Shown: positions 12,813 to 46,375 of the stretch, one piece after another
Layout: every line of letters starts with the position of its first letter
Numbering within the stretch: the stretch's first letter is position 1
From: an uncultured Bacilli bacterium
GTDB taxonomy: Bacteria > Bacillota_I > Bacilli_A > RF39 > UBA660
Assembly (NCBI GenBank): GCA_947625215.1
Contig: CANQNL010000002.1
Span: forward strand, 4,297-68,296
Reading direction: 5' to 3'
DNA: 64,000 nucleotides
Position numbers and translations under genes: made by a program
The notes under the pieces: model-generated
The model's input: the letters and a program-made list of their open reading frames with translations, nothing else
Told to the model about the DNA's origin: nothing
Databases searched by the model: none

Positions 12813-13220
12813 TTATTTTAAAATATAATTTAAAATAAATAAACTTAAAGAAGCACCTAAAGTATCAATAAAAATATCAAGTAATTTAGGAGTTCTACCA
12901 TCAATAAAAATCTGATGAACTTCATCACTAACAGCATATATAAAACAGAATATAATACCAATTATTAATTTATTATCTAAATTATATAATCTTAAATTTA
13001 AAAATAATAATATTCCTAAAATAAAATATTCCATAAAATGAGCTGTTTTTCTTACAATAATACTTATTTCTTCATCTTTATTTTTAATATTTAATATATT
13101 AGTTATTGATGATACAAATTTATCACTAACGCCAGTACTTTTATCAGCTGTTTGATTTGAAAACATAAATATTATTATTAACCATATAACTAATAATGTA
13201 CCTAATATTATTTTTGGCAT
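12813..13220 (-). CDS. VanZ-like family membrane protein, copy 1 (last gene of the left glycan operon)
   Basis: 135 aa with VRKTAHFMEYFILG and SDEVHQIFIDGR motifs. It is near-identical to 45965..46375. Confidence 0.8.
   Translation of the reverse strand: MPKIILGTLLVIWLIIIFMFSNQTADKSTGVSDKFVSSITNILNIKNKDEEISIIVRKTAHFMEYFILGILLFLNLRLYNLDNKLIIGIIFCFIYAVSDEVHQIFIDGRTPKLLDIFIDTLGASLSLFILNYILK
12834..13215. repeat. Left arm of a 382-bp inverted repeat (381/382 identical to 45973..46354)
   Basis: I aligned the reverse complement against 45973..46354 base by base. The only mismatch is 13155 versus 46033 (AAT/AAC, synonymous). Confidence 0.95.
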
Positions 13221-13238
13221 TGTATCATCTCCTTTATG

Positions 13239-14402
13239 TTAATCTCTAATATAAATATCTCTTGAATATATTTTATTCATTACATCTTCTATATTTTCAT
13301 CTATTCTATTGGCAATTATTAAATCACTTTGTTTTTTAAATTCATCTAAATTATTTATTTTTTCACAATTATTAAAATTATCTTCTTTTAATATTGGCTC
13401 ATATATAATTACGTTTACTTTATCTTTAAGCATATTTATAACATCTTGAATAGCACTAGCTCTAAAGTTATCAGAATTTGATTTCATAGTTAGTCTATAT
13501 ATTCCAACTGTTTTAGGATTTTTTTCTAAAATCATATTTACAATATGTTTTTTTCTTGTATCATTAGCTTTTACAATGGCTTCAATCATATTATTTGGAA
13601 CATCTTTAAAGTTAGCTAAGAGTTGTTTTGTATCTTTAGGAAGGCAGTAGCCTCCATAACCAAAAGATGGATTATTATAAAAGTCCCCTATTCTAGGATC
13701 TAAACATACTCCTTCAATTATATCTTTTGTATTTAAGTCTTTTACTTCAGCATAAGTATCCAATTCATTAAAATAAGCAACTCTTAAAGCTAAATATGTA
13801 TTAGCAAATAATTTAACTGCTTCAGCTTCTTTTGAACCCATTAAAAGTATTTTTACGTCTTTTTTTAAGGCACCTTCTTTTAAAGCTTCAGCGAACTTTA
13901 AAGCTTCCTTACTTTTAGAACCAACAATGATTCTAGATGGATATAAATTATCATATAAAGCTTTACCTTCTCTTAAAAATTCAGGAGAAAACATTATATT
14001 ATCAATATTGTATTTTTCTTTCATTTTATCGGTAAAACCTACAGGTATAGTTGATTTTATAATTATAGTTGTTTCTAATTTCATATCTACTACTTTTTTA
14101 ATAATATCTTCAACAGAAGATGTATCAAAATGATTTAAAACATCATCATAATTAGTAGGTGTACTTATAACAATATAATCAGCATCTTTAAAAGCTTCTT
14201 TATAATCTAAAGTGGCTTTTAGATTTAATTTTTTATTTTTAAAATAATCTTCTATCTCTTTATCTTTAATTGGAGATATTCTATTATTAATCATATTTAC
14301 TTTATCTTCGATTATATCTAAAGCCACTACTTCATTATTTTGTGAAAGTAATGTAGCTATCGATAATCCAACATAACCTGTTCCTGCTACCGCTATTTTC
14401 AT
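13239..14402 (-). CDS. ugd: UDP-glucose 6-dehydrogenase
   Basis: 387 aa with [14 protein letters not shown] and the [10 protein letters not shown] catalytic Cys motif. Confidence 0.9.
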
Positions 14403-14429
14403 ATTGATTCACCTTCTTTCGTGAAGAAT

Positions 14430-15989
14430 CTAATTTTCTTTTTCTTCGTGATATTCTTGTTCTGTATTGACATTCCAAATATTGTTCTTGTCTTTAACAC
14501 CATTTAAAATATTTTTAACTGTTTCAAATGATGTAACCATTGAATGATCCATATTGTTATATCTGTGTTGTCCATTTCTACCAACACAATATAGATTCTC
14601 ATAATTATTCAAATATTCGATTAATTCATCGATCTTATCATAAGTGTCAAAATATGCTGGATAAGCTTTTTTTACTTTTTCTCTGTGACTATCTAATACA
14701 CTTTCTTCACCTATTATTCCCATTGATACTAATTCTTTAGTGGCAAACTCAATACATTCTTTATCACTCATATTCCAGAATGAATCACCCTCATCACAGA
14801 AATATTCTAATCCTATCCATACTGTATTATCAGGATTTTTTACCATATATGGTGACCAGTTATTGAATATTTGTATTCTTCCTAATTTTACATTTGGTTC
14901 TTGAACATATATCCAACAATCTGGGACGATATTATTTAATGTTTTAATGTCAGTTTCATTTTTTAAGTTTAATTTATTTACTAAAAGTCCTACTGTAACA
15001 AAGTCACGATATGGTAGTCCTTTAGCTATATCGTAATACTTCTTAGGTGCTTTTGTTTTAAAATCTACTACTAAATCTTTAAGTGGCATTGATGATATAA
15101 ATATATCTCCTTTTATTTCTTCTTTTTTATTTTTTACTTCACAAGTGACTGATGAAATTTTGTTTTTGTCATTTTTTATTTCAACTACTTTATATCCTTT
15201 TTTAATTGTTCCGCCCATTTTTTCAAAATCTTTAGCTACTGTTTCCCAAAGTTGACCTGGGCCATATTTTGGATATATAAATTCTTCTATTAAAGATGTT
15301 TCGACCTTTCCATTATTAATATGGAATACCTTTTTAAACATATCTTTTATTATTCCAATAACTGATAAACCTTTTACTCTTTGAGCTCCCCAATCAGCTG
15401 ATATTTCACTAGGATGTCTTCCCCATAATTTTTCAGTATATTTTTCAAAAAACATACTATATAGTTTTTTACCAAATCTATTTATATAGAAATTTTCTAG
15501 TGATGTTTCTGGCTTTTTAACTATAGTGCTTTTTAAATAGCTAAAACCACCAGCTAAAGTTCTACCTAATCCCATATTTTTAAAAGTCTGTAGTTTCATA
15601 CTTATTGGATAATCAAAGAATTTTTTTAAATAATATATTCTTGATACTCTATTTCTTAATAGTAATACTCTATCTTCCTTTTCAGGATCTGGTCCATTTG
15701 GGTTTAGATTCTTTTTTCTTCCTAATTTTTTATCATCGTATGATGGTTTTCCCTGTATTGGCATAATGTTTTTCCAAAACTCCATTACTTCTTCATCTTT
15801 TGAAAAGAATCTATGACCACCGATATCCATTCTATTACCGTTATGTTTTACAGTTCTAGATATACCGCCTATTTCATTACTTTCTTCTAATATAATTACT
15901 TCATAGTCTTTGCTCTGTTTTAAAAGTTCATAACCTGCTGTAAGTCCAGCTGGACCAGCACCTATTATTATTACTTTTTCTTTCTTCAT
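14430..15989 (-). CDS. NAD(P)/FAD-dependent oxidoreductase (amine-oxidase/UDP-galactopyranose-mutase-like fold)
   Basis: The start was moved to [22 protein letters not shown], which has RBS AGGAGTG 5 nt upstream. The track start at 16007 would overlap gtrA. Rossmann GxGxxG motif present. Confidence 0.7.
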
Positions 15990-15999
15990 ACTATCACTC

Positions 16000-16434
16000 C
16001 TACTCAATTACTTTGTATAATACCTTTCTAGCCCCAAAGTTCCATATAAATACTATTATTGTTGATATAATCTTACTTACCATATAAAATAAGGCAATTT
16101 TCTCAGTAAATAACCATAATAACAATGTATCTAAACCTAAACCAATTACTCCAATAATGGCATATATTGTAAATTCACTTATTTTGGAAATACTTACATT
16201 ATTACTAAAGACAAATTTTTTACTTAATATATAATTAACAATTAATCCTAGAGTAAAGGATAAAACATTAGATACAATATAATGAATATGAAACATATCG
16301 GTAAATACATAAAGCATTCCAATGTTTACTATGGCTGCTATACCACCAACAAATCCATATCTTATAAATTGTAAAAATGAATTATTGGTTTGATTTATAA
16401 ATAGCTTATTTATTAATTCAGTCATTTTTATCAC
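16000..16434 (-). CDS. GtrA-family membrane protein (polyprenyl-phosphate-sugar translocation family)
   Basis: 144 aa with 4 TM segments. [25 protein letters not shown] is a typical GtrA N-terminus. Confidence 0.75.
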
Positions 16435-17977
16435 TTCTCTTTACTTTATTATTTAAACTTAAGGCATATATTAATAGCGGAACTGCACAAATTATCTGTG
16501 AATAGACAAATCTATATTCTTCACCAGTTATTAGTAACATAATTACTAAAGTATTGGATAAAACTAAGACAAATGGTAAATAGCTTGTCCATTCTTTTCG
16601 TTTTTTAAATATTGTTATTGCTATTGAAAATACAATTATAAATAAACTAGTTCCAACACTGAAAAATATATAGTTTAATGGTGATGCTGATACAATTTCC
16701 GTATATCTTTCATACCATCCACGAGTGTATTTAACAGCAGCTGATTTAGAATCTAAAATTGTAAAAGTTGTATCAGGGCTTTTAAAATCAACCTGATTTC
16801 TTATCTTCCATATTGGGCTTGTAACATTCATATATGAACGGATATACATATTTGGATATTTTAAGCCATACTTTATATAGAAATTTACAATTTCTTTAGA
16901 ATTTTCACGTCCCCAAATAAAGTAGCGTTTTTTAACTTCTTTATCAAACTTAAAAGGATTGAAATTAGCTGGTCGATATTTTTCTTCCCATTTTTCTTTA
17001 GGTGCTAAATCATCAAGTAATTTTTGATCTTCTTTAGATAACAGAACATTTTGATGATATACATAAGCTATTTGGTTCATTGGGACACCGATAAGTTCGG
17101 AAATTCCACCATCTTTTGACATATTTAAGCTATTATAAACAGGGCCATATAAGATAAATCTAAATAATATTAAACCAATTATCGTAACGGTATAAAATAA
17201 TCTTTTTTCCTTAAAAAATATTATCAAGAGGACAAACATCAAAAATACATTAGCGATACCATTATGTCTAACAAGCATTATGCCTAAGCTTGTTATAATA
17301 AGTAATATTTTGTGACTGTTTTTATTTATCCACTCACCTTTTGTTAGAACTATTTCAATTAATAGTAATGTTCCTAGGAAAAGAAGATAGGAAAATGGGC
17401 CATCTTTTCCAATATACATTGCCATTTTGATAAAAGTAGGATTTAATATAACCAATAATAAGGTTATAATAGTTCCTTTTTTATTAAAGAAATATTTTCT
17501 TAAAAAATAACAGAAATATAATAATATAGCACCTACAATTATCAGTTCAAATATTGCACATGATGCATAGCTATTATATATAAGTGAAGGAAGCTTCATA
17601 AATATAAATGTATGAATGAATGGATGCCAATTAGAATATATGCCACTTTGAACTTCTTTCCATTGACTTGGTGTATCTGCAGCTTTTAAAACAGCTGGAT
17701 AAAAGGCTATAAAAGCAAATAGCAATACTACAAATATAATAAGTCCATATACAATAAGTTCTTTTTTATTAAATTTTTCTTTATTAGTTGGCAATTTTAA
17801 ATTAACAATTTTAGGGAAAATAATGTTTAGAATAATAAAGGAAATTATAAATACTACTATTAAACTAAAATATGAAATGCTTTCTGTAACACTAAAACAA
17901 ATAGCTATAGAAAAATATATTGATAAAAGTGTAATTAAAATTTCTTTTAAAATTTTATTTTTGTTCATTATTTTCAC
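16418..17977 (-). CDS. Polytopic membrane protein, GT-C-like glycosyltransferase candidate (tandem paralog 2)
   Basis: 519 aa with more than 10 TM segments. It is a clear paralog of 17955..19487, sharing blocks SGxYSNWHP, FCYFLRKYFFNKKGTI, NQIAYVYHQ, YMNVTSPIWKI and EWTSYLPFVLVLSN. Confidence 0.45.
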   Translation of the reverse strand: MKIMNKNKILKEILITLLSIYFSIAICFSVTESISYFSLIVVFIISFIILNIIFPKIVNLKLPTNKEKFNKKELIVYGLIIFVVLLFAFIAFYPAVLKAADTPSQWKEVQSGIYSNWHPFIHTFIFMKLPSLIYNSYASCAIFELIIVGAILLYFCYFLRKYFFNKKGTIITLLLVILNPTFIKMAMYIGKDGPFSYLLFLGTLLLIEIVLTKGEWINKNSHKILLIITSLGIMLVRHNGIANVFLMFVLLIIFFKEKRLFYTVTIIGLILFRFILYGPVYNSLNMSKDGGISELIGVPMNQIAYVYHQNVLLSKEDQKLLDDLAPKEKWEEKYRPANFNPFKFDKEVKKRYFIWGRENSKEIVNFYIKYGLKYPNMYIRSYMNVTSPIWKIRNQVDFKSPDTTFTILDSKSAAVKYTRGWYERYTEIVSASPLNYIFFSVGTSLFIIVFSIAITIFKKRKEWTSYLPFVLVLSNTLVIMLLITGEEYRFVYSQIICAVPLLIYALSLNNKVKRSDKND

Positions 17978-19487
17978 CTTCTTTCTTATTTAACCATAAT
18001 GAATATATTAATAATGGAATCATACATATTATTTGGGAATAGACAAATCGGCATTCATAACCGGTAAGTAAAAGCATAATTATTGCTGTGTTTGAAAGAA
18101 CTAAGACAAATGGTAAATAACTTGTCCATTCTTTTTTTCTTTTATTAATAGTAATAAATAATGAAAATACAATTATAAATAAGCTAAAGCCTACTCCAAA
18201 GAAAATATATTTTGAAGTAATAATACCGCTATATTTATCTACATAATTACCAACACGAATACTTACTGGTGAATTTTTGCTACTTCCTATAAACTGAACA
18301 TTATCTTGAATTTTCCATATTGGACTGGTAACATTCATATATGCTCGAATATATTTATGTGGATACTTAAGTCCATATTTGATATAAAAATTCATTATAT
18401 CTTCAAAATTATTAGATACCCAGTTTCTATATGGTTCACCATTATCGTGAGTATATATTCCGTAAGTTTTCCCGTGACCTTTTAAACTATTAAAAGTAGC
18501 TGGTTCATAATATTTATTCCAAGTTTCTTTATCAGCAAATTTATCTAATAATTCTTGTTCATCTTTAGTTATATCGATATCTTGATGATAAACATAGGCA
18601 ATTTGATTCATCAAAACACCCATCATTTCTTCTTTACCACCATTTGGTTTTATATTTAAATTATCATATATCGGGCCATATAAGATAAATCTAAAAGCAA
18701 TTAATAATATACCGGTAATAATGTAAAATTTTTTATTTTTATAAAATATTGATAGAAATAAGAAAATTAGAAATACACTAACAATTCCATTATGTCTAAA
18801 TAGCATAATACCTAAACTGGTTAAAATTAATAATATTTTATTTTTATTGTTTTCTATCCATTTACCTTTTGTTAGAACTATTTCAATTATGAATATTGTT
18901 CCTATAAACATACACCAAGAAAATGGAATATCTTTGTAGATATACATTGCCCATCTTATAACTGCTGGATTTAATATAATTAAAAGCAATGATATTATCG
19001 TACCTTTTTTGTTAAAGAAGTATTTTCTTAAAAAGTAACAAAAATATAGTAAAATTAAACCAATAAACAATAATTGAAATATCGCACACGAAACATAGCT
19101 ATTATGAAACAATGATGGGAGTTTTAAAAATATTAATGTTTCTACTACTGGATGCCAATTAGAATATACGCCACTTTGAACTTGTTTCCATTGAACTTCT
19201 GTATCAGTATTTATTACACCTGGATATGAGGCAATAAATGATACTACTAAAAATATTAAAATAATAAATCCATATATAATAAGTTCCTTTTTATTAAAGT
19301 TTCCTTTATTCTTCTTAAAACTAAAATCGGTTATTTTTGGAAAAATTTTATTTAAAATTATAAAGGAAATTATAAATAAAATAAGCATAGCTATTAATGA
19401 TACTTTTTCAAATACATTATAAGTAATAGCTACTGAAAAATATATTGATAAAAGTATTGTTAACATTTTTTGTAGTATGTTATTCAC
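17955..19487 (-). CDS. Polytopic membrane protein, GT-C-like glycosyltransferase candidate (tandem paralog 1)
   Basis: 510 aa. See the paralog at 16418..17977. Confidence 0.45.
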   Translation of the reverse strand: MNNILQKMLTILLSIYFSVAITYNVFEKVSLIAMLILFIISFIILNKIFPKITDFSFKKNKGNFNKKELIIYGFIILIFLVVSFIASYPGVINTDTEVQWKQVQSGVYSNWHPVVETLIFLKLPSLFHNSYVSCAIFQLLFIGLILLYFCYFLRKYFFNKKGTIISLLLIILNPAVIRWAMYIYKDIPFSWCMFIGTIFIIEIVLTKGKWIENNKNKILLILTSLGIMLFRHNGIVSVFLIFLFLSIFYKNKKFYIITGILLIAFRFILYGPIYDNLNIKPNGGKEEMMGVLMNQIAYVYHQDIDITKDEQELLDKFADKETWNKYYEPATFNSLKGHGKTYGIYTHDNGEPYRNWVSNNFEDIMNFYIKYGLKYPHKYIRAYMNVTSPIWKIQDNVQFIGSSKNSPVSIRVGNYVDKYSGIITSKYIFFGVGFSLFIIVFSLFITINKRKKEWTSYLPFVLVLSNTAIIMLLLTGYECRFVYSQIICMIPLLIYSLWLNKKEGENNEQK

Positions 19488-19502
19488 ATTATCACCTTCT
19501 TT

Positions 19503-20345
19503 TTATTTAAATCTAGTTAATATATGATTTCCAGCATTGGTATGAATTATTTCACCGGAAATACAATTTGAAAAATCGGAAATTAGAAACAAAACTGTTT
19601 CAGCAACTTCTTCTGGAACAAAATATCTTTCACAATTTTCTTTACCAGAATATAAATCACCATTTTTATCTATACTAGTCATTTCCGTAGCTGTAACTCC
19701 AGGAGCTACCCCATTAACTCTAACTCCTTTGCGGTAAAACTCCGTTGATAGTCCTTTCACTAAACTATTAATGGCTACTTTTGTTAAACCATAAGGTATA
19801 TTGTCACAATAATCACCTCGCTCGGATGAAATGAAAATTATATTTGCCCCTTTTTGATCTATAGCTAAATATTTTCTTAAAAAATGCTGGGTAAAAAAGT
19901 AACTACCGTATAAATTTGTTTCCATTTGATTTTTAAAGCTTTCTTCGGTAACATCGAAAAAGCTTTTTTCGTGTAATGAAATACCAGCATTATTAATTAA
20001 ACAGTCTATTTTGCCATATTTTTCATAGATTTTATCAATGATATCTTTTCCTTTAGCAAAATCTTTAATATCAAAAACCATATATTCACTATTTTCGCCA
20101 ATTTCTTTTGTAGTTTGGGAAAGCTCTTTTTCATTTCTTCCTGTTATAATTACTTTAGCGCCTTCGCTTGCTAATTTTTTCGCTATTGCTTTTCCTAAAC
20201 CTTTTCCACCACCAGTGATTACTACTACTTTGTCAGTTAAACAATGTTTCATATCACTTTGAATAATTTCAGCTTTAATTACTTTTGGTTTATGATCATA
20301 AGCAATATATTTAAATGCTCTTTTGAAATATGTTCCTAAACTCAT
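19503..20345 (-). CDS. Short-chain dehydrogenase/reductase (SDR)
   Basis: 280 aa with TGGGKGLGKAIA cofactor motif, NNAG, and a Y-x-x-x-K region (PYGLTKVA). Confidence 0.8.
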   Translation of the reverse strand: MSLGTYFKRAFKYIAYDHKPKVIKAEIIQSDMKHCLTDKVVVITGGGKGLGKAIAKKLASEGAKVIITGRNEKELSQTTKEIGENSEYMVFDIKDFAKGKDIIDKIYEKYGKIDCLINNAGISLHEKSFFDVTEESFKNQMETNLYGSYFFTQHFLRKYLAIDQKGANIIFISSERGDYCDNIPYGLTKVAINSLVKGLSTEFYRKGVRVNGVAPGVTATEMTSIDKNGDLYSGKENCERYFVPEEVAETVLFLISDFSNCISGEIIHTNAGNHILTRFK

Positions 20346-20361
20346 TTACAACATACCTCCC

Positions 20362-21903: not shown

Positions 21904-21918
21904 ATTTCTCCTTTATAT

Positions 21919-23112: not shown

Positions 23113-23128
23113 ATACCTTCTCCTTCAC

Positions 23129-24865: not shown

Positions 24866-24884
24866 ATTTATTCTTCCTTTCTTT

Positions 24885-26186: not shown

Positions 26187-26203
26187 ATTTTCACCCTTTT
26201 CTT

Positions 26204-31338: not shown

Positions 31339-31346
31339 ATAACCAC

Positions 31347-33462: not shown

Positions 33463-33512
33463 ATTTTTACCTCCTTTATTTTGCCCCATATTTACTTCTT
33501 TTTTCTTCCAAA

Positions 33513-33541
33513 ATATTACAATATGCAACTTTTTGCAACAA
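33513..33541 (-). promoter_or_regulatory. Candidate promoter of the recombinase gene (TTGTTG-17-TAATAT)
   Basis: The minus strand reads TTGTTG caaaaagttgcatattg TAATAT, about 50 nt upstream of ATG 33462. Confidence 0.35.
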
Positions 33542-33580
33542 AATTTATGAATTTTCGACAAATTTATAAAAAACATAGTA

Positions 33581-33594
33581 TTTTATGGTATAAT
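33581..33594 (+). promoter_or_regulatory. Outward-facing extended -10 promoter (TTTTATGGTATAAT) inside the cassette, aimed through IRR at the right operon
   Basis: TGGTATAAT lies at 33586..33594, 22 nt inside IRR. The identical 14-mer TTTTATGGTATAAT precedes recF at 60004..60017. Confidence 0.55.
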
Positions 33595-33616
33595 ATTGCT
33601 ATGTGATTTGCCCTGA

Positions 33617-33655
33617 AATTAAATATTCAGAGATATTTTTTTAATCACATTATTA
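33617..33655. repeat. IRR: right 39-bp perfect inverted repeat of the recombinase cassette
   Basis: AATTAAATATTCAGAGATATTTTTTTAATCACATTATTA is the exact reverse complement of IRL. Confidence 0.95.
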
Positions 33656-33678
33656 GTTTAGAAAAAATAGGTGAAAGT

Positions 33679-35542: not shown

Positions 35543-35566
35543 TTTAATTATAAAAGGATGAGTAAT

Positions 35567-36649: not shown

Positions 36650-36673
36650 AATCTATAGAAACGGGGTGCTAAA

Positions 36674-37879: not shown

Positions 37880-39017
37880 TAGATGTGTTTTGCCATTACC
37901 AGCAGTACAAGGTGGAGCTGTAGAAACATTAATTGAATCTTACTTGGAAGAAAATGACAAAAAATATCACGATGAAATAGATGTAGTAAGTGTTCCTATT
38001 CCAACTGAAATGCAAAAAAAAATAAAAAAATACAAATATAGTAATTTTATATATATAAAAAATAAAAGTATAAATAGTCTATATAATCTTTGCCATAGAA
38101 CTATCAAAAAGTTGGGAAAATATATTGGTGATTATTTTATAAATTCAGCTATTAAAGAGATCAAAAATAGTAAGAAAGAATATGACATAATAGTTTGTGA
38201 AAATGAGCCAGTATATGTAATGTTGTTAAAAAAACATTTTAAAGGAAAAGTAGTTTTGCATTTACACAATGATTTTCTAAATAGAGAAACACCATTTTAT
38301 GAAGATATTATTCAAAGTTGTGATTTAATATTACCAGTAAGCAATTATATAAAAAAAAGAGTTAATTGCCCAAAAAAATGTATTACTACTTATAATGGAA
38401 TTGATTTGAAGTTGTTTAAAAATAATAGCAATTCAAAATTAAAAAAACAATATAATATCAACGATAAAGATTTTATATATAGTTATATTGGTAGAGTGTC
38501 TAAGGATAAGGGAATTAATGAATTAACAGATGCTTTTATAAAATTAAATGATAAATATAAAGATATAAAATTATTTATTATCGGAGATCCTATAGGAAGT
38601 CCTAATTCCAAAGTCGCTGAAAAAGATTATTTTTATAATAGTTTATTAAAAAAGAAAAATAATAATATGATTTTTACAGGCTATATTGATAATAAAAAAT
38701 TATATCAATATATTGATATAACTAACGTACAAGTTATACCATCTATAGTAAATGAAGCATTTGGCTTAGTTGCTATAGAGGCACTTGCAATGGATAAAAG
38801 ATTAATTGTAACAGATGCTGGAGCATTACCTGAAATAACTAATAAAAAATATGGAAGAATTGTTAAAAGAGAAAACTTAACCAATAATTTATATACCGCC
38901 ATGGAAGAGGAATATTTAAATAGAAAGAAAAACAAAAATTGTCTTAATAATTTAAAACAATTTTCAAAGGAAGAATATGCAAAAAGATTACATGATAATT
39001 TAATGACTTTAAAATAG
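37860..39017 (+). CDS. Family 4 (GT-B) glycosyltransferase
   Basis: 385 aa with QGGAVE N-terminus, GRVSKDKG and PSIVNEAFGLVAIEALA. Confidence 0.8.
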   Translation: MRILIVNRCVLPLPAVQGGAVETLIESYLEENDKKYHDEIDVVSVPIPTEMQKKIKKYKYSNFIYIKNKSINSLYNLCHRTIKKLGKYIGDYFINSAIKEIKNSKKEYDIIVCENEPVYVMLLKKHFKGKVVLHLHNDFLNRETPFYEDIIQSCDLILPVSNYIKKRVNCPKKCITTYNGIDLKLFKNNSNSKLKKQYNINDKDFIYSYIGRVSKDKGINELTDAFIKLNDKYKDIKLFIIGDPIGSPNSKVAEKDYFYNSLLKKKNNNMIFTGYIDNKKLYQYIDITNVQVIPSIVNEAFGLVAIEALAMDKRLIVTDAGALPEITNKKYGRIVKRENLTNNLYTAMEEEYLNRKKNKNCLNNLKQFSKEEYAKRLHDNLMTLK

Positions 39018-39032
39018 AAAGCAGGTGAAGTT

Positions 39033-40154
39033 ATGAAAAAAATAGGAATAATAACTTTTAGTAGAGCTCAAAATCATGGAGCTACTTTGCAGTGTATGGC
39101 ACTACAAAAAACAATTGCTAATATTGTTAATGATAGTGATGTAAAAGTAATAGATTATCGAAATAAATATGTAGAGCATTCTTATAAAGTGTTTAGTATT
39201 GATACAAGCAATATAAAAACTTGTATAAGAACTATTATATCTTCTTTAGTATTTTTTAAGAAAAATTTTATTAGAAATAAAAAATATAAAAAATTTATTC
39301 TAACTCATCTTAATTTTACTAAAGAATGTACTACTAAAAAGCAAGTAGAGGAAATTACTAAAGACTTTGATTATATTATTGTTGGTAGCGATCAAGTTTG
39401 GAATCCATTTTTTGCTAAAAGTATTGATGATGTCTATTTTTTGAATTTTAAAACACCTGCTAAGAAAATATCTTATGCCGCCAGTCTTGGCTTTAATAAA
39501 ATGGAAGATAAAAAGTTATATAAAAAGTTATTAGGAAATATCGATAATATTTCTATTAGAGAAAAAGATGGATGTAAGATAGTTTCTAATATTTTAAACA
39601 AAGATATAAAAAACACATTAGATCCGACATTACTTCTTACAAGAGAAGAATGGGAAAATTATTTCAATAAAAATAATACACTAACAGATAAATATATATT
39701 TGCTTATGTGCCTGGTAATTTGGAAGGCTATGAGGAATTAGTAAATACTGTTTCTGATAAACTTAACAAAAAGGTAGTCAATATAAGAAAAAGAGATACA
39801 GGGATTAGAAATATACTAAAAAATGCCTTTACATCCACTCCTGATGAATTTCTAAATTATATTTATAATGCTGATATTGTGGTGACAACATCGTTTCATG
39901 CGGTTGTATTTGCATTAATATTTGAAAAGAAATTTTGGGTATTAGCACCTAAAAATAATAGTAGTAGAATTAACAATTTACTTGAAAAGTTGAATTTATC
40001 TTATAGAAGTGTAGATAATATTGAAAAATTAAAACAAGTGGATTTGATGAAAGATATAAATTATAAAGATGTAAAAATTAAATTAGAAGAACTAAGACAA
40101 GATTCTTTAAATTGGCTAACAAAAATGCTGACTGAAAGTGATAAAAATGAATAG
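39033..40154 (+). CDS. Polysaccharide pyruvyl transferase family protein
   Basis: 373 aa with MKKIGIITFSRAQNHGATLQCMAL, GSDQVWNP and TTSFHAVVFA. Confidence 0.7.
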   Translation: MKKIGIITFSRAQNHGATLQCMALQKTIANIVNDSDVKVIDYRNKYVEHSYKVFSIDTSNIKTCIRTIISSLVFFKKNFIRNKKYKKFILTHLNFTKECTTKKQVEEITKDFDYIIVGSDQVWNPFFAKSIDDVYFLNFKTPAKKISYAASLGFNKMEDKKLYKKLLGNIDNISIREKDGCKIVSNILNKDIKNTLDPTLLLTREEWENYFNKNNTLTDKYIFAYVPGNLEGYEELVNTVSDKLNKKVVNIRKRDTGIRNILKNAFTSTPDEFLNYIYNADIVVTTSFHAVVFALIFEKKFWVLAPKNNSSRINNLLEKLNLSYRSVDNIEKLKQVDLMKDINYKDVKIKLEELRQDSLNWLTKMLTESDKNE

Positions 40155-41556
40155 GGAAAGAAAACTATTTAAAAATACAATAATAATATCAATTGGTAAA
40201 ATTTGTACCCAGTTTGTTTCTTTCTTACTTTTACCACTATATACAGGCTATTTATCAACAACTGAATATGGAATTGTTGATTTGGTAAATACATTGGTTA
40301 CATTATTGATGCCTATAGTATCATTTCAACTTTATCAAGGAGTGTTTAGAGAATTAATTGATAGTAGAAATAATGAAGAAAATAAAGGTAAAATAATATC
40401 TACTGGAACTACTTTAACGACAATGCAATGTATAATATTTTTAATTTTATTCTTGGTATTTTCTCCATTTATAAATAATGATTATAAATTACTGTTAGTT
40501 GTCAATTTAATCATCTGTATTTATTTGACATTATTTCAACAAATAGCTAGAGGATTTGGAGATAATACTAGATATTCTATTGGATGTGTCATTGCTAGTC
40601 TTTGTACAATAGTATTAAATGTTTTCTTCATTGTAGGTTTGCATTTAGGAGCAACAGGTATGTTACTGGGTACAATGCTTGGGCAACTAATTGGAATAAT
40701 ATATTTTATTTGTTCATTAAAATTAATTCGTTACATTGGTTTTAATAAATATGATGTTAGCATAAGAAAAAAATTATTAAAATATTCAATTCCACTAATA
40801 CCAAATGCTATATCTTGGTGGCTAATTAGTGCTTCTGATGCAATGATTGTGTCACTTATGTTAGGAGTTGATATGAATGGTGTATTAGCTGCTTCCTTAA
40901 AATTTTCTACTATACTTACAGTATTATATGGAATGTTTGATATGGCTTGGATTGAATCTATATCGGCTAATATAAATGATAAAGATATAGATGTATATTT
41001 TAATAAGACTATGAATATCATCTTAAAGTTGTTTTTATCATTATGTATAGGAATTATTGCTTGTATGCCATTTGTATTTCCAATAATGATTAATAGTGCT
41101 TATAGTGCTGGATATGTGTTAATTCCATTTACTATACTTTCAGCATTATTTAATGTCATTCAGGGTATGGTTATTGTTGTTTTTGCAGCAAAAAAGAATA
41201 CTGGTTTTGTTTCTATAACTTCAGGTCTAGCTGCAATCATAAATATTGCGATAGATATATTATTGATTAAATTTATTGGATTATATGCTGCTGTTATTTC
41301 AACTTTAATAGCATATATAGTTATAGCTATTACAAGATATATTGGAGTAAACAAAAAATATTTTAAAATAAAAATTGAAAAAGCATTATGTCTAAGTGGC
41401 TTTGCTATATTAACTTTGGTAATAAGTTGTTATTACATAAATAATATATATCTTAACATTTTATCATTAGGTGTAGCCATTATATATGCAATATTATTAA
41501 ATAAAAATTCAATTACTACTTTAATAAAATTAGTAAAACATAAATTTGGTAATTGA
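40138..41556 (+). CDS. wzx: Wzx-type (MOP superfamily) flippase
   Basis: 472 aa with 12-14 TM segments. LFKNTIIISIGKICTQFVSFLLLPLYTGYLSTTEYG is typical. An alternative start is at 40147. Confidence 0.75.
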   Translation: MIKMNRERKLFKNTIIISIGKICTQFVSFLLLPLYTGYLSTTEYGIVDLVNTLVTLLMPIVSFQLYQGVFRELIDSRNNEENKGKIISTGTTLTTMQCIIFLILFLVFSPFINNDYKLLLVVNLIICIYLTLFQQIARGFGDNTRYSIGCVIASLCTIVLNVFFIVGLHLGATGMLLGTMLGQLIGIIYFICSLKLIRYIGFNKYDVSIRKKLLKYSIPLIPNAISWWLISASDAMIVSLMLGVDMNGVLAASLKFSTILTVLYGMFDMAWIESISANINDKDIDVYFNKTMNIILKLFLSLCIGIIACMPFVFPIMINSAYSAGYVLIPFTILSALFNVIQGMVIVVFAAKKNTGFVSITSGLAAIINIAIDILLIKFIGLYAAVISTLIAYIVIAITRYIGVNKKYFKIKIEKALCLSGFAILTLVISCYYINNIYLNILSLGVAIIYAILLNKNSITTLIKLVKHKFGN

Positions 41557-41576
41557 AATATAAAGGAGAGATGTTT

Positions 41577-43316
41577 ATGTACACAAGTGAAAGAAATATT
41601 CAAATATTGATAAGTGTTTTAAAACATAATAATATAAAGAAAATAATTGTTAGTCCAGGAACAATGAATCTTTGTTTTGTTGGTAGTGTTAAAAATGATC
41701 CATTTTTTGAAGTCTATTCTTGTGTTGATGAAAGAGCTGCTTGTTATATGGCAAGTGGACTTGCTGTAGAGAGTGGAGAGCCAGTTGTATTATCTTGTAC
41801 TGGAGCAACTGCCTCAAGAAATTATATGTCTGGATTAACCGAAGCATATTATAGAAAAATACCAATTTTAGCAGTAACTTGTGCACAACATTTTTGTAGA
41901 ATTGGAAACAATGTGCCACAATCTATTGATAGAACTGCAATACCAAACGATATTGCTAATATAAGTGTTCAAATACCTAAAATAAATAGTATGGATGATG
42001 AAATCGGAAGTAATTTATTGATAAATAAAGCAGTATTAGAACTTAAACATAATGGTGGAGGACCAGTTCATATTAATTTAGAAGCACAAATTGAGAGTAA
42101 TAAATTTGAAGTTTCTGAATTACCACAAACTAGATTTATTGATAGAATTGAAATTTATGATAAATTTCCTGAACTTAAAAATAAAAAAATAGGTATTTTT
42201 GTTGGTAATCATAGAATTTGGGATAAACAATTGATTAAAGAGGTAGAAAAATTTTGTGAATTATACAATGCTGTAGTATTATGCGATCATACAAGTAATT
42301 ATAATGGCAAATATAAGATTATGCCAAATATTATATTGGATCAAGACAATTATATAAGTCCTTTAAATGATTTTGATATATTAATTCATCTTGGTGATAT
42401 ATCAGGAGCTTATCTTAAATTAAGTATGAAAGAGGTCTGGCGAGTTAATCCTGATGGAAAATTAACAGATACTTTTTCAAAATTAAGATATGCATTTGAA
42501 ATGAGAGAACTTGATTTTTTCCAAAAATATAATGCTGTTGGAAATAAGAAAATTAATACTAGCAACTATTTTGAGTTAAAAAAAGAATTTGATGAATTAG
42601 AAGAAAAGGCTTTAAATTGTGATATCCCATTTTCAAACATTTGGATGGCACGTAATACAATTAAATTGCTACCTAAAGATGGTTACTTACATTTGGCTAT
42701 TTTAAACTCATTAAGATCATGGAATTATTTTACAAGAGAAGATAATCTATATTGTTTTTCAAATACTGGAGGTTTTGGAATCGATGGCTCTTTATCCACA
42801 ATAATAGGATCTTCACTTGTGAATCCAAATAAAATTTACTTTGGCATTGTAGGTGATTTAGCATTCTTTTATGATTTAAATTCATTAGGTAATAGACATA
42901 TAGGCAATAATATTAGAATTATGTTTATAAACAATGGTTGTGGAACAGAGTTCCATAACTATAGTCATCCAGCATCTTCTTTAGGAAGTATGACAACAAA
43001 CTATATAGCTGCTGATGGACATTTTGGAAATAAGTCAAGAAGTTTAGTTAAACATTATGCTGAAGATTTAGGATTTGAATATATAAGTGCTGAAAATAAA
43101 GAAGAATTTAAAAAATACATAAAACATTTTACTTCGAACGATAAATATGATAAACCAATTATTTTTGAAGTATTTACTAATTCTGATGATGAAAGCAATG
43201 CTTTAAAAACAATAAGAAATTTAAAAAAGTCAACCATTGGAGTTATAAAAAATGCTGCCAAAAAAATACTAAATGAAAATGCAAAAGCTAAAATTAAAAA
43301 ACTTATAAGAAAATAA
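41577..43316 (+). CDS. Thiamine-diphosphate enzyme, MenD-like (right-operon copy)
   Basis: Start set at MYTSERNIQIL, with RBS AAGGAGAG about 8 nt upstream. VDERAACYMASGLAVESGEPVVLSCTGATASRNYMSGLTEAYYRKIPILAVT and GDLAFFYDLNSLG are present. Collinear with 23129..24865. Confidence 0.7.
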   Translation: MYTSERNIQILISVLKHNNIKKIIVSPGTMNLCFVGSVKNDPFFEVYSCVDERAACYMASGLAVESGEPVVLSCTGATASRNYMSGLTEAYYRKIPILAVTCAQHFCRIGNNVPQSIDRTAIPNDIANISVQIPKINSMDDEIGSNLLINKAVLELKHNGGGPVHINLEAQIESNKFEVSELPQTRFIDRIEIYDKFPELKNKKIGIFVGNHRIWDKQLIKEVEKFCELYNAVVLCDHTSNYNGKYKIMPNIILDQDNYISPLNDFDILIHLGDISGAYLKLSMKEVWRVNPDGKLTDTFSKLRYAFEMRELDFFQKYNAVGNKKINTSNYFELKKEFDELEEKALNCDIPFSNIWMARNTIKLLPKDGYLHLAILNSLRSWNYFTREDNLYCFSNTGGFGIDGSLSTIIGSSLVNPNKIYFGIVGDLAFFYDLNSLGNRHIGNNIRIMFINNGCGTEFHNYSHPASSLGSMTTNYIAADGHFGNKSRSLVKHYAEDLGFEYISAENKEEFKKYIKHFTSNDKYDKPIIFEVFTNSDDESNALKTIRNLKKSTIGVIKNAAKKILNENAKAKIKKLIRK

Positions 43317-43382
43317 ATCAATCAAAATACTAATATCACTAAAAATATGAGGATATTAACTAAAATAAAATATAAATAATGG

Positions 43383-44861
43383 ATGGAAGTGATGTTCTTT
43401 ATGGACAAACTGAAAAAAATATTAATATATGCTTTCTTAATATTTTTAAGTCTTGCCTTTGCCAATAAACTTTTAGATACATCAGTTGTTTTAAGTTTAT
43501 TATACGTAGGTATTGTTTTGTTAGTCGCTTATAAAATAAAAGTACCAAAGTTTGGATTAGTATTATTTATAGGTGCATTTTTACTAAGGCTAGTAGTTAT
43601 TTTGATATTTGATACTCCGATAGTAGCCGATCCTGAAATAGCTTATCAAATGGCAAATAATATTGTTTCTGGAAATTTTGATGCAATTGCTCATCATCCG
43701 TATATTCAAAAATGGGGATTTAGAATGGGCTATGCTATATTTATGAGTTTACCATTGTTTATTTGTAAAGGTACTATTTTAATAAAACTCATAAACTGTT
43801 TATTTACTTCATTAATAGTTTTATTAATTTATTTAATTTCTAAAGAACTTACAAATGAGAAGACTGCAAGAATTATTAGTATTGCCTATATGGCATTTCC
43901 ATTCCCATTAATATTCAATACAGTTTTAAGCGATCAACATATATCTTCATTTATGTTTTTGTTAGCGGTTTATATTTTAATTAGTAAAAAAACTAAAAAT
44001 ATGAATCATATATTAAAGTTTTTCTTAATTGGACTTGCTTTAGCCATAGGAAATATTATAAGGCCAGAAGCTATAATATTTTATACATCAATAATTTTAT
44101 TCTTAATTTTAACAAGTAAATTAAAAGATTATAAAAAAGTTATTATAAATATTTTAGTAATGCTTGTCACATATTTTGGGATAACAACTGGAGCATCAGC
44201 TTTAGTTACTTATTCAGGCATAAATCCTACAGGATTAAAAAATATGATACCATCTTTTAAAATCGCTATGGGATTAAATTATGCGAGTGGTGGTGATTAT
44301 GAGCAAACGTTTGCTTCCAAATTTGTAGGCCATTATAAAGAAAATGCTAAAACAAAAGATTCTGATGAAGACTATGTTTGGGCAAGTGATGAAACAAGAA
44401 AAGAAATGCTTTTAGATAATACAATAGGGCAATTTAATAAACTTCCATCATTATTCATATATAAAGCTAGAATGTATTGGCTAAATACTAATAGGGATGC
44501 AAACCCTTGGATAGAAGATTTTGCTGTAGGTTATTTAAAGAAAGATAATATTACTATTTTTGGACATAAATTTTCTGGTAATAAAGTATTAGGAATAATA
44601 TATTCCATTAACCAATTATATCTATATATTTTCTTTATACTTATGGTATTTGCTATTTATTTAAATAGAAAGAAAATGCCTAAAGAACAATTCTTTATTT
44701 TCTTAATATTAGCAGTTACTACTGGAGCATTTCTAATAGTTGAATGTACTCCAAGATATGCTTATCTAGGACAAATATATATGTTTATAATGTCAGCATA
44801 TTCTATTAAATATATATTGAACAAAATTGAAGAAAGAAAAATGCTAAAAAAAAGTAAATAA
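43383..44861 (+). CDS. GT-C fold membrane glycosyltransferase (ArnT/PMT, family 39/83-like)
   Basis: 492 aa with more than 10 TM segments and an N-terminal loop IVADPEIAYQMANNIVSGNF typical of the family. The start is uncertain (43383, 43392 or 43401). Confidence 0.5.
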   Translation: MEVMFFMDKLKKILIYAFLIFLSLAFANKLLDTSVVLSLLYVGIVLLVAYKIKVPKFGLVLFIGAFLLRLVVILIFDTPIVADPEIAYQMANNIVSGNFDAIAHHPYIQKWGFRMGYAIFMSLPLFICKGTILIKLINCLFTSLIVLLIYLISKELTNEKTARIISIAYMAFPFPLIFNTVLSDQHISSFMFLLAVYILISKKTKNMNHILKFFLIGLALAIGNIIRPEAIIFYTSIILFLILTSKLKDYKKVIINILVMLVTYFGITTGASALVTYSGINPTGLKNMIPSFKIAMGLNYASGGDYEQTFASKFVGHYKENAKTKDSDEDYVWASDETRKEMLLDNTIGQFNKLPSLFIYKARMYWLNTNRDANPWIEDFAVGYLKKDNITIFGHKFSGNKVLGIIYSINQLYLYIFFILMVFAIYLNRKKMPKEQFFIFLILAVTTGAFLIVECTPRYAYLGQIYMFIMSAYSIKYILNKIEERKMLKKSK

Positions 44862-44904
44862 AAGATTTGTTATTTAAACAAATTGTTGTATGAGAGGTGT
44901 TTTA

Positions 44905-45783
44905 ATGATAGAGAAGATAACTAATTATTTAAAACTTTTAAGAGTAAAACATTACATTAAAAACTTATTAATATTTCTTCCATTGCTTTTTGGCAAAATG
45001 TATTATGATGTAGATAATATATTAATTTGTTTAATAGGCTTTTTGACTTTTAGTTTTACTTCTTCTATTATTTATATATTTAATGATATTTGTGATATTG
45101 AAAGTGATAGGAAACATGAAATAAAGAAAAATAGACCACTTGCAAGTAGAAAAATAAGCATTGCCAGTGCTTATAAAACTATAATAATATTATTAGTTAT
45201 TGTTGCTTTTATGACATATTTATTATACATACTTAATGCTAATATGAACTCAATTTTTCTAGTTTGCAGTTACGTTATAATAAATTTACTATATTCAAAA
45301 TGGCTTAAACATATTATTTTGGTTGATGTAATTATTCTTGTTTTAAGTTTCTTAATTAGAGTGTTCTTTGGTGCAGCATTAATTGATGTTGAAGTATCAA
45401 ATTGGCTTTATTTAACAATTATGTCTGGAGCATTCTATATGGGATTTGGTAAAAGAAGAAATGAAATTATAAAAAACGAATCACATAAAGCACAAGCAAC
45501 TCAATTTTACAACAAAGATTTTTTAGATAAAAATATGTATGTTTGTTTAGCTTTAACAGTTGTATTTTATGCAATGTGGACTGTGGATCCGAACGTAATT
45601 GCTCATGTAAGGTATAATTATTTGATATGGACTGTGCCATTGGTTTTAATAATTTTATTTGAATATAGTTTTGCCATTGAAAAAAATGTATATGGTGATC
45701 CTGTTGATGTATTAATTAATAACAAAAATATCATTTTAACAACTATTATATATATGTTATGTTTGTTGTTAATGTGGCTTTAA
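44905..45783 (+). CDS. UbiA-family prenyltransferase, decaprenyl-phosphate phosphoribosyltransferase-like
   Basis: Start set at MIEKITNYLKLLRVKHYIKN, with RBS GAGAGGTG upstream. NDICDIESDRKHEIKKNRPLASRKIS matches the NDxxDxxxD...RP(L/I)AS pattern of the DPPR-synthase subgroup. Confidence 0.7.
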   Translation: MIEKITNYLKLLRVKHYIKNLLIFLPLLFGKMYYDVDNILICLIGFLTFSFTSSIIYIFNDICDIESDRKHEIKKNRPLASRKISIASAYKTIIILLVIVAFMTYLLYILNANMNSIFLVCSYVIINLLYSKWLKHIILVDVIILVLSFLIRVFFGAALIDVEVSNWLYLTIMSGAFYMGFGKRRNEIIKNESHKAQATQFYNKDFLDKNMYVCLALTVVFYAMWTVDPNVIAHVRYNYLIWTVPLVLIILFEYSFAIEKNVYGDPVDVLINNKNIILTTIIYMLCLLLMWL

Positions 45784-45964
45784 GAAATTAATCAATAATT
45801 ACAAAAGGTTCTTTTAAAACTAAATATTGATAAAAGCATATTGTCTGCTTTTTAAGGGTGTAAGAAAAATACATAGTTAGAATACATCTAAATAAAATCT
45901 TTTTTAGAGATAGTTAAATTTAAATTCTACACCCGGAAAGGTATATGACAAAAAGGGGGGTAAA

Positions 45965-46375
45965 ATGTTACAAAAAATAATATTAGGTACATTATTAGTT
46001 ATATGGTTAATAATAATATTTATGTTTTCAAACCAAACAGCTGATAAAAGTACTGGCGTTAGTGATAAATTTGTATCATCAATAACTAATATATTAAATA
46101 TTAAAAATAAAGATGAAGAAATAAGTATTATTGTAAGAAAAACAGCTCATTTTATGGAATATTTTATTTTAGGAATATTATTATTTTTAAATTTAAGATT
46201 ATATAATTTAGATAATAAATTAATAATTGGTATTATATTCTGTTTTATATATGCTGTTAGTGATGAAGTTCATCAGATTTTTATTGATGGTAGAACTCCT
46301 AAATTACTTGATATTTTTATTGATACTTTAGGTGCTTCTTTAAGTTTATTTATTCTTTCGTTAATAAAACCGTAA
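45965..46375 (+). CDS. VanZ-like family membrane protein, copy 2
   Basis: 136 aa, identical to copy 1 except for the first 3 and last 5 residues. RBS GGGGGG is present, and a 180-bp leader separates it from the UbiA-like gene. Confidence 0.8.
   Translation: MLQKIILGTLLVIWLIIIFMFSNQTADKSTGVSDKFVSSITNILNIKNKDEEISIIVRKTAHFMEYFILGILLFLNLRLYNLDNKLIIGIIFCFIYAVSDEVHQIFIDGRTPKLLDIFIDTLGASLSLFILSLIKP
45973..46354. repeat. Right arm of the 382-bp inverted repeat
   Basis: See 12834..13215. Confidence 0.95.

What the first reader, a model, noticed from the sequence alone, without database searches (positions are those of the whole stretch)
12834..46354. 382-bp inverted repeat (381/382 identical) formed by duplicated vanZ genes brackets the whole 33-kb glycan region
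A base-by-base comparison shows that 12834..13215 is the reverse complement of 45973..46354, with one synonymous mismatch (13155 versus 46033). Identity stops abruptly a few codons inside each end of the two vanZ ORFs, and the flanking DNA is unrelated. Everything else in the two operons is diverged paralogy at best, so this identity implies very recent duplication or ongoing gene conversion. Two consequences follow. First, each operon ends in, or is followed by, the same VanZ protein, so VanZ would be made whichever operon is ON. Second, a 382-bp inverted repeat is a good RecA substrate, and homologous inversion of the entire 33-kb block is possible. Because this region lies about 10-40 kb from oriC, such an inversion would flip gene orientation relative to replication and would confuse short-read assemblies.
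Basis: seen in the sequence. Interest (0 to 1): 0.7.

Follow-up and report, generated by a model that had tools for sequence, protein, structure and literature searches.

The report
Twin vanZ genes bracket glycan locus
Two almost identical copies of a small membrane-protein gene (vanZ) sit in opposite orientation at the outer ends of two alternative cell-surface sugar-polymer operons in an uncultured gut bacterium; they have been kept identical by copy-correction between the copies and could let the whole 33-kb block flip, which is a known kind of bacterial genome behaviour, not a new mechanism.

Summary
12834-13215 is the reverse complement of 45973-46354 (381/382; the one mismatch is a synonymous Asn codon). 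Both arms lie strictly inside two VanZ-family ORFs that have different first 3-4 and last 5 codons. The arms end two divergent polysaccharide operons whose other paralogues are only 33-58% identical as proteins. An in-frame, intragenic identity block inside two otherwise distinct genes indicates gene conversion between old paralogues, not a simple duplication or an assembly artefact. All four repeat/flank junctions recur in independent metagenome contigs. The source is an uncultured 'Bacilli bacterium' MAG lineage (26% GC). Two low-coverage metagenome contigs, 100% identical to the window's flanks, join ugd-vanZ to lytR. That is exactly the junction a 33-kb inversion would create. However, they come from 2.5x SPAdes assemblies in which the repeat is collapsed, so a chimeric join cannot be excluded, and the reciprocal junction was not found. 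Inversion is therefore plausible but unproven. Each outer flanking gene has its own promoter or terminator, so an inversion would be nearly silent. The closest analogues are tufA/tufB and S. aureus hsdMS. This is a new member of a known kind, of modest interest.

The parts
12834..13215 (.). Left arm of the 382-nt inverted repeat, internal to vanZ-A
   Evidence: 381/382 complementary to 45973-46354
45973..46354 (.). Right arm of the 382-nt inverted repeat, internal to vanZ-B. The C at 46033 is private to this assembly.
   Evidence: contigs L002, L003 and L004 all carry T at 46033
12813..13220 (-). vanZ-A, 135 aa (MPK...NYILK), last gene of operon A, 18 nt behind ugd, with an AGGAG ribosome-binding site
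   Evidence: (PF04892, 72.4 bits)
45965..46375 (+). vanZ-B, 136 aa (MLQK...SLIKP), 181 nt behind ubiA of operon B
   Evidence: (PF04892, 73.9 bits)
13216..45972 (.). 32,757-nt segment that a crossover between the arms would invert. It holds operon A, the central recombinase cassette and operon B.
   Evidence: geometry; gene content
13239..32429 (-). Glycan operon A: GT2, unknown, GT4, GT2, pyruvyl transferase, unknown, TPP enzyme, unknown, Wzx, SDR, 2x DUF6020, GtrA, FAD oxidoreductase, UDP-glucose dehydrogenase. It is co-directional with replication.
   Evidence: Pfam
33679..45783 (+). Glycan operon B: DUF4422, GT4, GT4, Wzy-like, GT4, pyruvyl transferase, Wzx, TPP enzyme, PMT_2, UbiA. It is head-on to replication.
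   Evidence: Pfam
32452..33658 (.). Central cassette: a tyrosine recombinase gene bracketed by a 42-nt inverted repeat (41/42). It lies about 20 nt from the first gene of each operon. Its repeats are unrelated to the vanZ repeat.
   Evidence: I4; PF00589
46382..46414 (+). Terminator-like hairpin plus U-run directly after vanZ-B, which separates it from lytR
   Evidence: -11.7 kcal/mol centroid, z = -2.8, followed by UUUUUUAUUU
46486..47925 (+). LytR-CpsA-Psr (LCP) glycopolymer ligase gene, the outer flank of arm B
   Evidence: PF03816; LCP is adjacent to vanZ in 37 of 152 related loci
12772..12800 (-). Perfect TTGACA-17-TATAAT promoter-like site directly after vanZ-A, serving the DUF5684 gene (12255-12746), the outer flank of arm A
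   Evidence: 12 of 12 matches; PF18936
56503..56729 (.). DnaA-box cluster (oriC) upstream of dnaA, the reference point for replication direction
   Evidence: 8 boxes, 4 perfect; DnaA

Best explanation
The two divergent cell-surface glycan operons each ended in their own vanZ paralogue. Homologous, RecA-type gene conversion between these oppositely oriented paralogues overwrote the interior of one with the other. This left a 382-nt block that is identical in both genes and in frame, while each gene kept its own first 3-4 and last 5 codons and its own flanks. The block is now long and perfect enough to be a substrate for further conversion, which keeps the copies identical. It is also a substrate for reciprocal crossover, which would invert the 32.8-kb segment between the arms. 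A crossover regenerates two intact vanZ genes with swapped termini (MPK...SLIKP and MLQK...NYILK). It leaves both operons attached to the central promoter cassette. The outer neighbours also stay independently controlled: DUF5684 has its own consensus promoter, and lytR sits behind a terminator. An inversion would therefore be nearly silent phenotypically and would change mainly which operon is head-on to replication. Shown here: the repeat, its intragenic in-frame position, the much older divergence of the other paralogues, and the reality of all four junction flanks. Inferred: the conversion mechanism, its RecA dependence, and the actual occurrence of the inversion.
For: The repeat is 381/382 with sharp ends inside both ORFs. 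Both ORFs are VanZ. The other inter-operon paralogues are 33-58% identical at protein level and 72% at DNA level at best. The divergent termini still look like genuine VanZ ends found in relatives: MIQK......LSYFIK...ILSLITKN. This fits old paralogues and not a duplicated fragment. The only mismatch (C at 46033) is private to this assembly, and other samples show T in the B context, so homogenisation is as recent as strain-level divergence. An Ile55Val variant (46127 = 13061) appears both in a B-context contig (L004) and in an A-context contig (L005). Independent contigs reproduce A-in|R|A-out (L001, L005) and B-in|R|B-out (L004). The hybrid protein MPK...SLIKP (P0002) exists in two samples. 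Contig L002 is window 15153->12834 joined to 46355->47158 at 100% identity, i.e. ugd-vanZ-lytR. Precedent: the inverted tuf genes co-evolve by RecA/RecB-dependent conversion, and up to a quarter of recombination events give an inversion (PMC8262849, citing Hughes 2000).
Against: No read-level or long-read data are available. All metagenome contigs are 1.1-2.6x SPAdes contigs in which the two copies collapse, so neither the SNP-to-copy assignment nor the hybrid junction is secure. In sample ERZ27248994 the A-out contig L087 starts only 26 nt inside the repeat. That is a coverage gap, and it would leave lytR as the only continuation in the assembly graph. The reciprocal hybrid MLQK...NYILK is not in the 15-billion-protein collection. 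No second species with both copies could be retrieved, so concerted evolution across species is untested. recA is not in the window.
Confidence: 0.7

Rival explanations
1. The vanZ repeat is a selected, frequently used flip-flop device. RecA-mediated inversion of the whole dual-glycan block is a second switching layer nested around the central site-specific promoter toggle. It could, for example, put the expressed operon co-directional with replication or place it next to lytR.
For: The hybrid junction occurs in two samples whose flanks are 100% identical to the window, so the same strain appears in both orientations. The locus already contains a recombinase-bearing invertible cassette. VanZ and LCP genes are recurrent neighbours in relatives.
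Against: The outer genes have their own promoter or terminator, so no expression change is predicted. The repeat lies at the 3' ends of the operons, so promoters are not exchanged, unlike the C. fetus sap system. The hybrid contigs may be low-coverage chimeras. The reciprocal junction was not found. The third-position skew analysis gave no usable signal.
Confidence: 0.1
2. A single recent event copied vanZ sequence from one site to the other, and there is no ongoing exchange. The copies will now simply diverge.
For: Only one genome with both copies was available. One mismatch in 382 nt is compatible with a single recent event.
Against: The copied block is in frame and strictly inside a pre-existing vanZ gene, so the event itself was homologous replacement, i.e. 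conversion. A 382-nt perfect repeat remains recombinogenic. The shared Ile55Val variant in both contexts and the T at 46033 in other samples hint at repeated exchange, although copy assignment is uncertain.
Confidence: 0.15
3. The second copy is an assembly artefact, a duplicated or collapsed contig end or a mis-join in the MAG.
For: The source is a MAG lineage, and repeats of this size are hard for short reads.
Against: Both copies are interior to a 70-kb contig with unique flanks on both sides and complete ORFs. Contigs from five other samples independently reproduce all four flank/repeat boundaries. A copy-specific SNP exists. Only the relative orientation of the 33-kb block could be an assembler's choice.
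Confidence: 0.03
4. Strong purifying selection on VanZ alone keeps two old paralogues identical.
For: All 127 amino acids in the block are identical.
Against: Synonymous sites are identical too, with one difference in 382 nt. The neighbouring paralogues are 72% identical at DNA level, and the closest other VanZ is 77% identical at DNA level.
Confidence: 0.01

Closest known systems
tufA/tufB of Salmonella and E. coli (Abdulkarim & Hughes 1996; Hughes 2000; summarised in PMC8262849)
   Same: These are two paralogous genes in inverted orientation on one chromosome. RecA/RecB-dependent gene conversion keeps them near-identical. The same recombination gives inversion of the intervening DNA in a fraction of events.
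   Different: The tuf genes are about 1.2 kb, essential, roughly 760 kb apart and on opposite sides of oriC, so their inversions are roughly symmetric. Here the block is 382 nt of an accessory membrane-protein gene, the arms are 33 kb apart and both lie within one replichore, and they bracket one functional locus. Nothing has been tested genetically here.
Staphylococcus aureus hsdMS inverted copies (PMC6778178)
   Same: Nearly perfect inverted repeats made of paralogous genes mediate a reversible chromosomal inversion. That inversion is invisible to short reads. The copies show mosaic SNP patterns.
   Different: There the repeats are 1,748 bp, half the chromosome inverts, the phenotype is strong (small-colony variants), and the inversion was reported not to depend on recA. 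Here the inversion would be 33 kb and probably silent.
Campylobacter fetus sap locus (Dworkin & Blaser, 1990s; from my own knowledge, not re-read here)
   Same: RecA-dependent inversion occurs between conserved segments of oppositely oriented paralogous surface-structure genes, in a locus that controls surface variation.
   Different: In C. fetus the conserved segments are at the 5' ends and the invertible DNA carries the only promoter, so inversion switches expression. Here the repeat is at the 3' ends of the operons and no promoter is exchanged.
Site-specific invertons such as the Bacteroides capsule promoters, the C. difficile switches and Hin
   Same: They also involve inverted repeats flanking DNA in surface-polysaccharide loci. 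This locus does contain such an element at 32452-33658.
   Different: Invertons use short (about 10-50 nt) non-coding repeats recognised by a dedicated recombinase. The vanZ repeat is 382 nt of coding sequence and shares no sequence with the recombinase's 42-nt repeats.
Arm-to-arm gene conversion in human Y-chromosome palindromes (PMC3723533)
   Same: Inverted repeat arms are kept above 99.9% identical by gene conversion, with rare inversions.
   Different: That is a eukaryotic system with arms of tens to hundreds of kb and different recombination machinery.

Membership tests
VanZ-like family (Pfam PF04892; VanZ-2 group of the Lipocone superfamily, PMC12419801) | Significant match to the family profile over its full length | tested here: met
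   72.4 and 73.9 bits against a cut-off of 30.1, covering profile positions 4-123/125 of 126
VanZ-like family (Pfam PF04892; VanZ-2 group of the Lipocone superfamily, PMC12419801) | The RKxxH motif in helix 2 and the DxxxD motif in helix 4, which PMC12419801 gives for VanZ-2 | tested here: met
   Read directly from the translations: VRKTAHF and DIFIDTLG. R58, K59, H62, D116 and D120 are invariant in alignment A1.
VanZ-like family (Pfam PF04892; VanZ-2 group of the Lipocone superfamily, PMC12419801) | Gene-neighbourhood link to lipid-carrier-dependent cell-wall or exopolysaccharide synthesis | tested here: met
   Both copies end Wzx/Wzy-type glycan operons. An LCP ligase gene is adjacent to vanZ in 37 of 152 related loci.
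VanZ-like family (Pfam PF04892; VanZ-2 group of the Lipocone superfamily, PMC12419801) | Biochemical activity on undecaprenyl-linked head groups, or a lipoglycopeptide-resistance phenotype | not testable with these tools
   This is only a prediction in PMC12419801.
Inverted paralogue pairs that co-evolve by gene conversion and mediate inversion (tuf-type) | Two paralogous genes in inverted orientation on the same replicon | tested here: met
Inverted paralogue pairs that co-evolve by gene conversion and mediate inversion (tuf-type) | Within-genome identity far above that of neighbouring paralogues, including at synonymous sites, with the tract bounded inside the genes | tested here: met
   99.7% DNA identity against 72% DNA and 58% protein identity for the TPP-enzyme pair. 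The ends lie 5-8 nt and 21 nt inside the ORFs.
Inverted paralogue pairs that co-evolve by gene conversion and mediate inversion (tuf-type) | Copies cluster by genome and not by position across strains or species (concerted evolution) | tested here: inconclusive
   Ile55Val is seen in both contexts, and T at 46033 is seen in the B context of another sample. However, the copies collapse in low-coverage assemblies. No second species with both copies was retrievable.
Inverted paralogue pairs that co-evolve by gene conversion and mediate inversion (tuf-type) | Both orientations of the intervening segment observed | tested here: inconclusive
   The ugd-vanZ-lytR junction occurs in L002 and L003. The reciprocal junction is absent. 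Chimeric assembly is not excluded.
Inverted paralogue pairs that co-evolve by gene conversion and mediate inversion (tuf-type) | Dependence on RecA or RecBCD-type (AddAB) recombination | not testable with these tools
   This needs genetics. recA is not in the window.
Site-specific inverton (invertible DNA switch) | Short repeats recognised by a dedicated recombinase, with the repeat sequence shared with that recombinase's sites | tested here: not met
   The repeat is 382 nt of coding DNA. The 42-nt repeats of the local tyrosine recombinase and their halves occur only at 32452-32493 and 33617-33658.

The most novel reading that the evidence does not exclude
The vanZ repeat could be a maintained homology cassette that lets the cell flip the entire 33-kb dual-glycan locus by general recombination. 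It would be nested around a site-specific promoter toggle. The result would be a two-level inversion system in which the outer flip re-orients the currently expressed operon relative to replication, or relative to the lytR ligase gene. Both orientations would then coexist within one strain in the gut.
Probability: 0.08. Interest if true: 0.65.

Novelty: new member of a known kind. Interest (0 to 1): 0.35.

Why it matters
The finding gives a clean natural example, in an uncultured small-genome gut Bacilli lineage, of gene conversion homogenising accessory genes at the ends of two alternative surface-glycan operons. It has practical consequences. The orientation of this 33-kb block in any short-read MAG is not trustworthy. 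Hybrid vanZ genes in metagenome catalogues may be either real recombinants or chimeras. The recurrent pairing of VanZ with LCP ligases, and its presence at the end of both alternative operons, supports the idea that VanZ is a shared terminal or recycling function for undecaprenyl-linked glycopolymer intermediates. If the inversion is real and frequent, it would add a RecA-type structural polymorphism on top of a site-specific phase switch.

Tried and rejected
(1) Exact-protein look-ups for vanZ-B, P0001, P0004, UbiA and LytR returned nothing, because NCBI-only genes are not in the position index. As a result the B-in side is represented by a single contig, L004.
(2) Scans of the GTDB representative genomes and of the JGI/ENA metagenome contigs with a VanZ alignment gave only relatives at 50% identity or less. 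Neither the species nor a sister species with both copies could be fetched.
(3) I compared third-codon-position and four-fold-site GC/AT skew between operon A, operon B and the flanking genes, looking for signs of long-term residence in one orientation. The co-directional control groups disagree among themselves (-0.17 to +0.11), so the operon B value (+0.19) cannot be interpreted. The whole-sequence skew simply follows the coding strand.
(4) I searched for the recombinase's 42-nt repeat or its halves inside or near vanZ and found none. Site-specific inversion at vanZ is rejected.
(5) I searched for the GC-rich leader motif CCCRKAAAGGTA elsewhere in the window. It gave 2 hits, which is no better than chance.
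(6) Rfam at gathering thresholds found no RNA family in the window.
(7) The 'MTKGGK' N-terminal extension in related VanZ proteins looked at first like a second genomic context. It turned out to be an alternative in-frame start call.
(8) Organism names: the GyrB search gave no names directly. Only cluster members named 'Bacilli bacterium' MAGs.


Full report
OBSERVATION. The repeat is real and is as described. The repeat finder lists I1, arms 12834-13215 and 45973-46354, 382 nt, with 32,757 nt between the arms. A base-by-base comparison gives a single mismatch, at 13155/46033. Similarity drops to random level immediately outside both ends. The mismatch is AAT versus AAC, both Asn. The arms lie inside ORFs 12813-13220(-) (135 aa) and 45965-46375(+) (136 aa). 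Both ORFs match Pfam VanZ (PF04892) at 72-74 bits against a cut-off of 30.1. Both carry the RKxxH and DxxxD motifs that PMC12419801 assigns to the VanZ-2 group. The proteins are identical over 127 residues. They differ only in the first 3-4 residues (MPK versus MLQK) and the last 5 residues (NYILK versus SLIKP).

CONTEXT.
- Organism: the window is 26% GC. GyrB relatives at 86-96% identity are abundant in metagenomes, and the only named cluster members are 'Bacilli bacterium' MAGs. Both vanZ proteins and GyrB sit on one 70,199-nt NCBI contig.
- Origin: dnaA, dnaN, recF and gyrB follow a cluster of eight DnaA boxes at 56503-56729.
- Gene order from Pfam: uvrB; DUF5684 (12255-12746, -); vanZ-A; then operon A on the minus strand (ugd, FAD oxidoreductase, GtrA, two DUF6020, SDR, Wzx, an unknown, a TPP enzyme, an unknown, pyruvyl transferase, GT2, GT4, an unknown, GT2, up to 32429). 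Next comes a tyrosine-recombinase gene bracketed by a 42-nt inverted repeat (32452-33658). Operon B follows on the plus strand (DUF4422, GT4, GT4, Wzy-like, GT4, pyruvyl transferase, Wzx, TPP enzyme, PMT_2, UbiA, to 45783). Then come vanZ-B, a LytR-CpsA-Psr ligase gene (46486-47925), and then parB, gidB, gidA and onwards.
- Other paralogues shared between the operons are old: TPP enzyme 58% aa (72% DNA identity, I2/I3), pyruvyl transferase 33% aa, and the two Wzx not detectably similar.

WHAT IT IS. The identical block begins 5-8 nt after each start codon and stops 21 nt before each ORF end. It is in frame in two genes that keep different termini and different neighbours.
- A duplicative insertion would not land in register inside a pre-existing paralogue. 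Homologous replacement (gene conversion) does exactly that.
- The non-identical termini resemble genuine VanZ termini in relatives: MIQK......LLSYFIK...ILSLITKN.
- The two 5' leaders share a short AAAGG-A-ATGA motif when compared with a related contig. This fits two old paralogues whose interiors were homogenised.
- Selection alone cannot explain the identity at synonymous sites.
- It is not an assembly artefact. Both copies are interior to the contig with unique flanks. Contigs from five other samples reproduce all four flank/repeat boundaries: L001 and L005 show A-in|R|A-out, L004 shows B-in|R|B-out, and L086 and L087 show the A-out flank.
- The C at 46033 is private to this assembly. L002, L003 and L004 carry T, so in other samples the arms may be 382/382.
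- An Ile55Val change (46127 = 13061) appears in a B-context contig (L004) and in an A-context contig (L005). This would indicate exchange between the copies. However, the copies collapse in low-coverage graphs, so a SNP cannot be assigned securely to one copy.

DOES THE BLOCK INVERT? A crossover within the repeat predicts hybrid genes MPK...SLIKP and MLQK...NYILK.
- The first hybrid exists. P0002 is found in two ENA assemblies. Contig L002 (3,125 nt, ERZ27249483) is window 15153->12834 joined to 46355->47158, with 100% identity in both flanks, i.e. ugd-vanZ-lytR. L003 (ERZ27248994) shows the same junction.
- The reciprocal hybrid is not in the collection.
- Caveat: these are SPAdes contigs at k-mer coverage 1.1-2.6. 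L086 begins exactly 55 nt inside the repeat, which is a graph branch at k = 55. L087, from the same sample as L003, begins only 26 nt inside it, which is a coverage gap. With the A-out link missing, lytR is the only continuation available to the assembler. A chimeric path therefore explains L003 without any inversion.
- Of the five metagenome contigs that span the repeat, three are parental and two are recombinant. That ratio fits both a real polymorphism and random joins.
- I rate a real inversion polymorphism at roughly 0.4. It is plausible a priori: the tuf genes and kan cassettes in inverted orientation give inversions in 8-25% of recombination events (PMC8262849). It would also be close to neutral here.

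CONSEQUENCES.
- vanZ-A is 18 nt behind ugd with its own AGGAG site, so it is almost certainly co-transcribed with operon A.
- vanZ-B lies 181 nt behind ubiA, after a weak A/U-rich hairpin with a T-run and an imperfect GC-rich inverted repeat. Co-transcription with operon B is plausible but not shown.
- A consensus TTGACA-17-TATAAT site follows vanZ-A and serves DUF5684.
- A good terminator-like hairpin follows vanZ-B, before lytR.
- Inversion would therefore not rewire the expression of the outer genes or of the operons. It would swap which operon (A about 19 kb, B about 12 kb) is head-on to replication. It would also swap a few terminal residues of VanZ.
- The skew analysis meant to reveal long-term orientation was uninformative.

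WHY vanZ AT BOTH ENDS? In 152 related loci fetched with a VanZ alignment, an LCP gene lies within 3 kb of vanZ on the same strand in 37. It usually lies immediately upstream. [quoted passage not shown] A shared terminal or carrier-recycling function needed by either glycan would explain why both operons carry a copy and why homogenised copies are tolerated. This is inference.

COMPARISON AND VERDICT. The closest known systems are:
- the inverted tufA/tufB pair, which shows conversion plus inversion (PMC8262849);
- the S. aureus hsdMS inverted copies, which show reversible inversion invisible to short reads (PMC6778178);
- the C. fetus sap locus, known to me from the literature but not re-read here.

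The vanZ repeat is not a site-specific inverton. The local recombinase's 42-nt repeats are unrelated to it. The finding is a sound observation and a new member of a known kind. Gene conversion is preferred over duplication, and inversion remains unproven. Interest is modest (0.35). Most of the residual novelty lies in the possibility of a two-level inversion architecture around a dual glycan locus.

Noticed in passing
window 32452-33658: A tyrosine-recombinase gene (PF00589) is bracketed by a 42-nt inverted repeat (41/42). It lies only about 20 nt from the start codons of the first genes of both divergent glycan operons. An extended -10 element, TGGTATAAT, at 33586-33594(+) inside the segment points at operon B. 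This looks like a recombinase-carrying invertible promoter cassette that toggles between operon A and operon B.
   Followed up: partly
window 45856-45943; L168 579-768 and about 1215-1355: The leader of vanZ-B holds an imperfect GC-rich inverted repeat (AAGGGTGTAAGAA ... TTCTACACCCGGAAAGG). In a related contig the same position has a 24-nt, 92% inverted repeat enclosing 142 nt with four AAATCTTACAA repeats. A second similar pair follows vanZ there. This could be a small inverton or a MITE-like element.
   Followed up: partly
L168 (ERZ27249483), 1-1369: A co-occurring relative has ugd at 92% DNA identity to the window, but its vanZ is only 77% identical. The 5' leader of that vanZ resembles the window's vanZ-B leader, not the vanZ-A leader. 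The ends of the locus are therefore mosaic between close relatives.
   Followed up: partly
loci L006-L167: A LytR-CpsA-Psr gene is the immediate same-strand neighbour of vanZ in 37 of 152 related loci, usually 34-150 nt upstream. This suggests a conserved VanZ-LCP functional pair.
   Followed up: partly
window 47989-49761: The ParB-like ORF is unusually long (590 aa). It contains a 112-nt internal direct repeat (48213-48324 and 48486-48597, 90% identity).
   Followed up: no
window 16418-19487 and 34442-36649: There are tandem paralogue pairs inside the operons: two DUF6020 membrane proteins (59% aa) in operon A and two GT4 glycosyltransferases (50% aa) in operon B.
   Followed up: no
window 33679-47925: About 14 kb of plus-strand genes (operon B, vanZ-B and lytR) are head-on to replication only 9-23 kb from oriC. 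This produces a local reversal of the cumulative GC skew that could be mistaken for an origin or terminus signal.
   Followed up: partly
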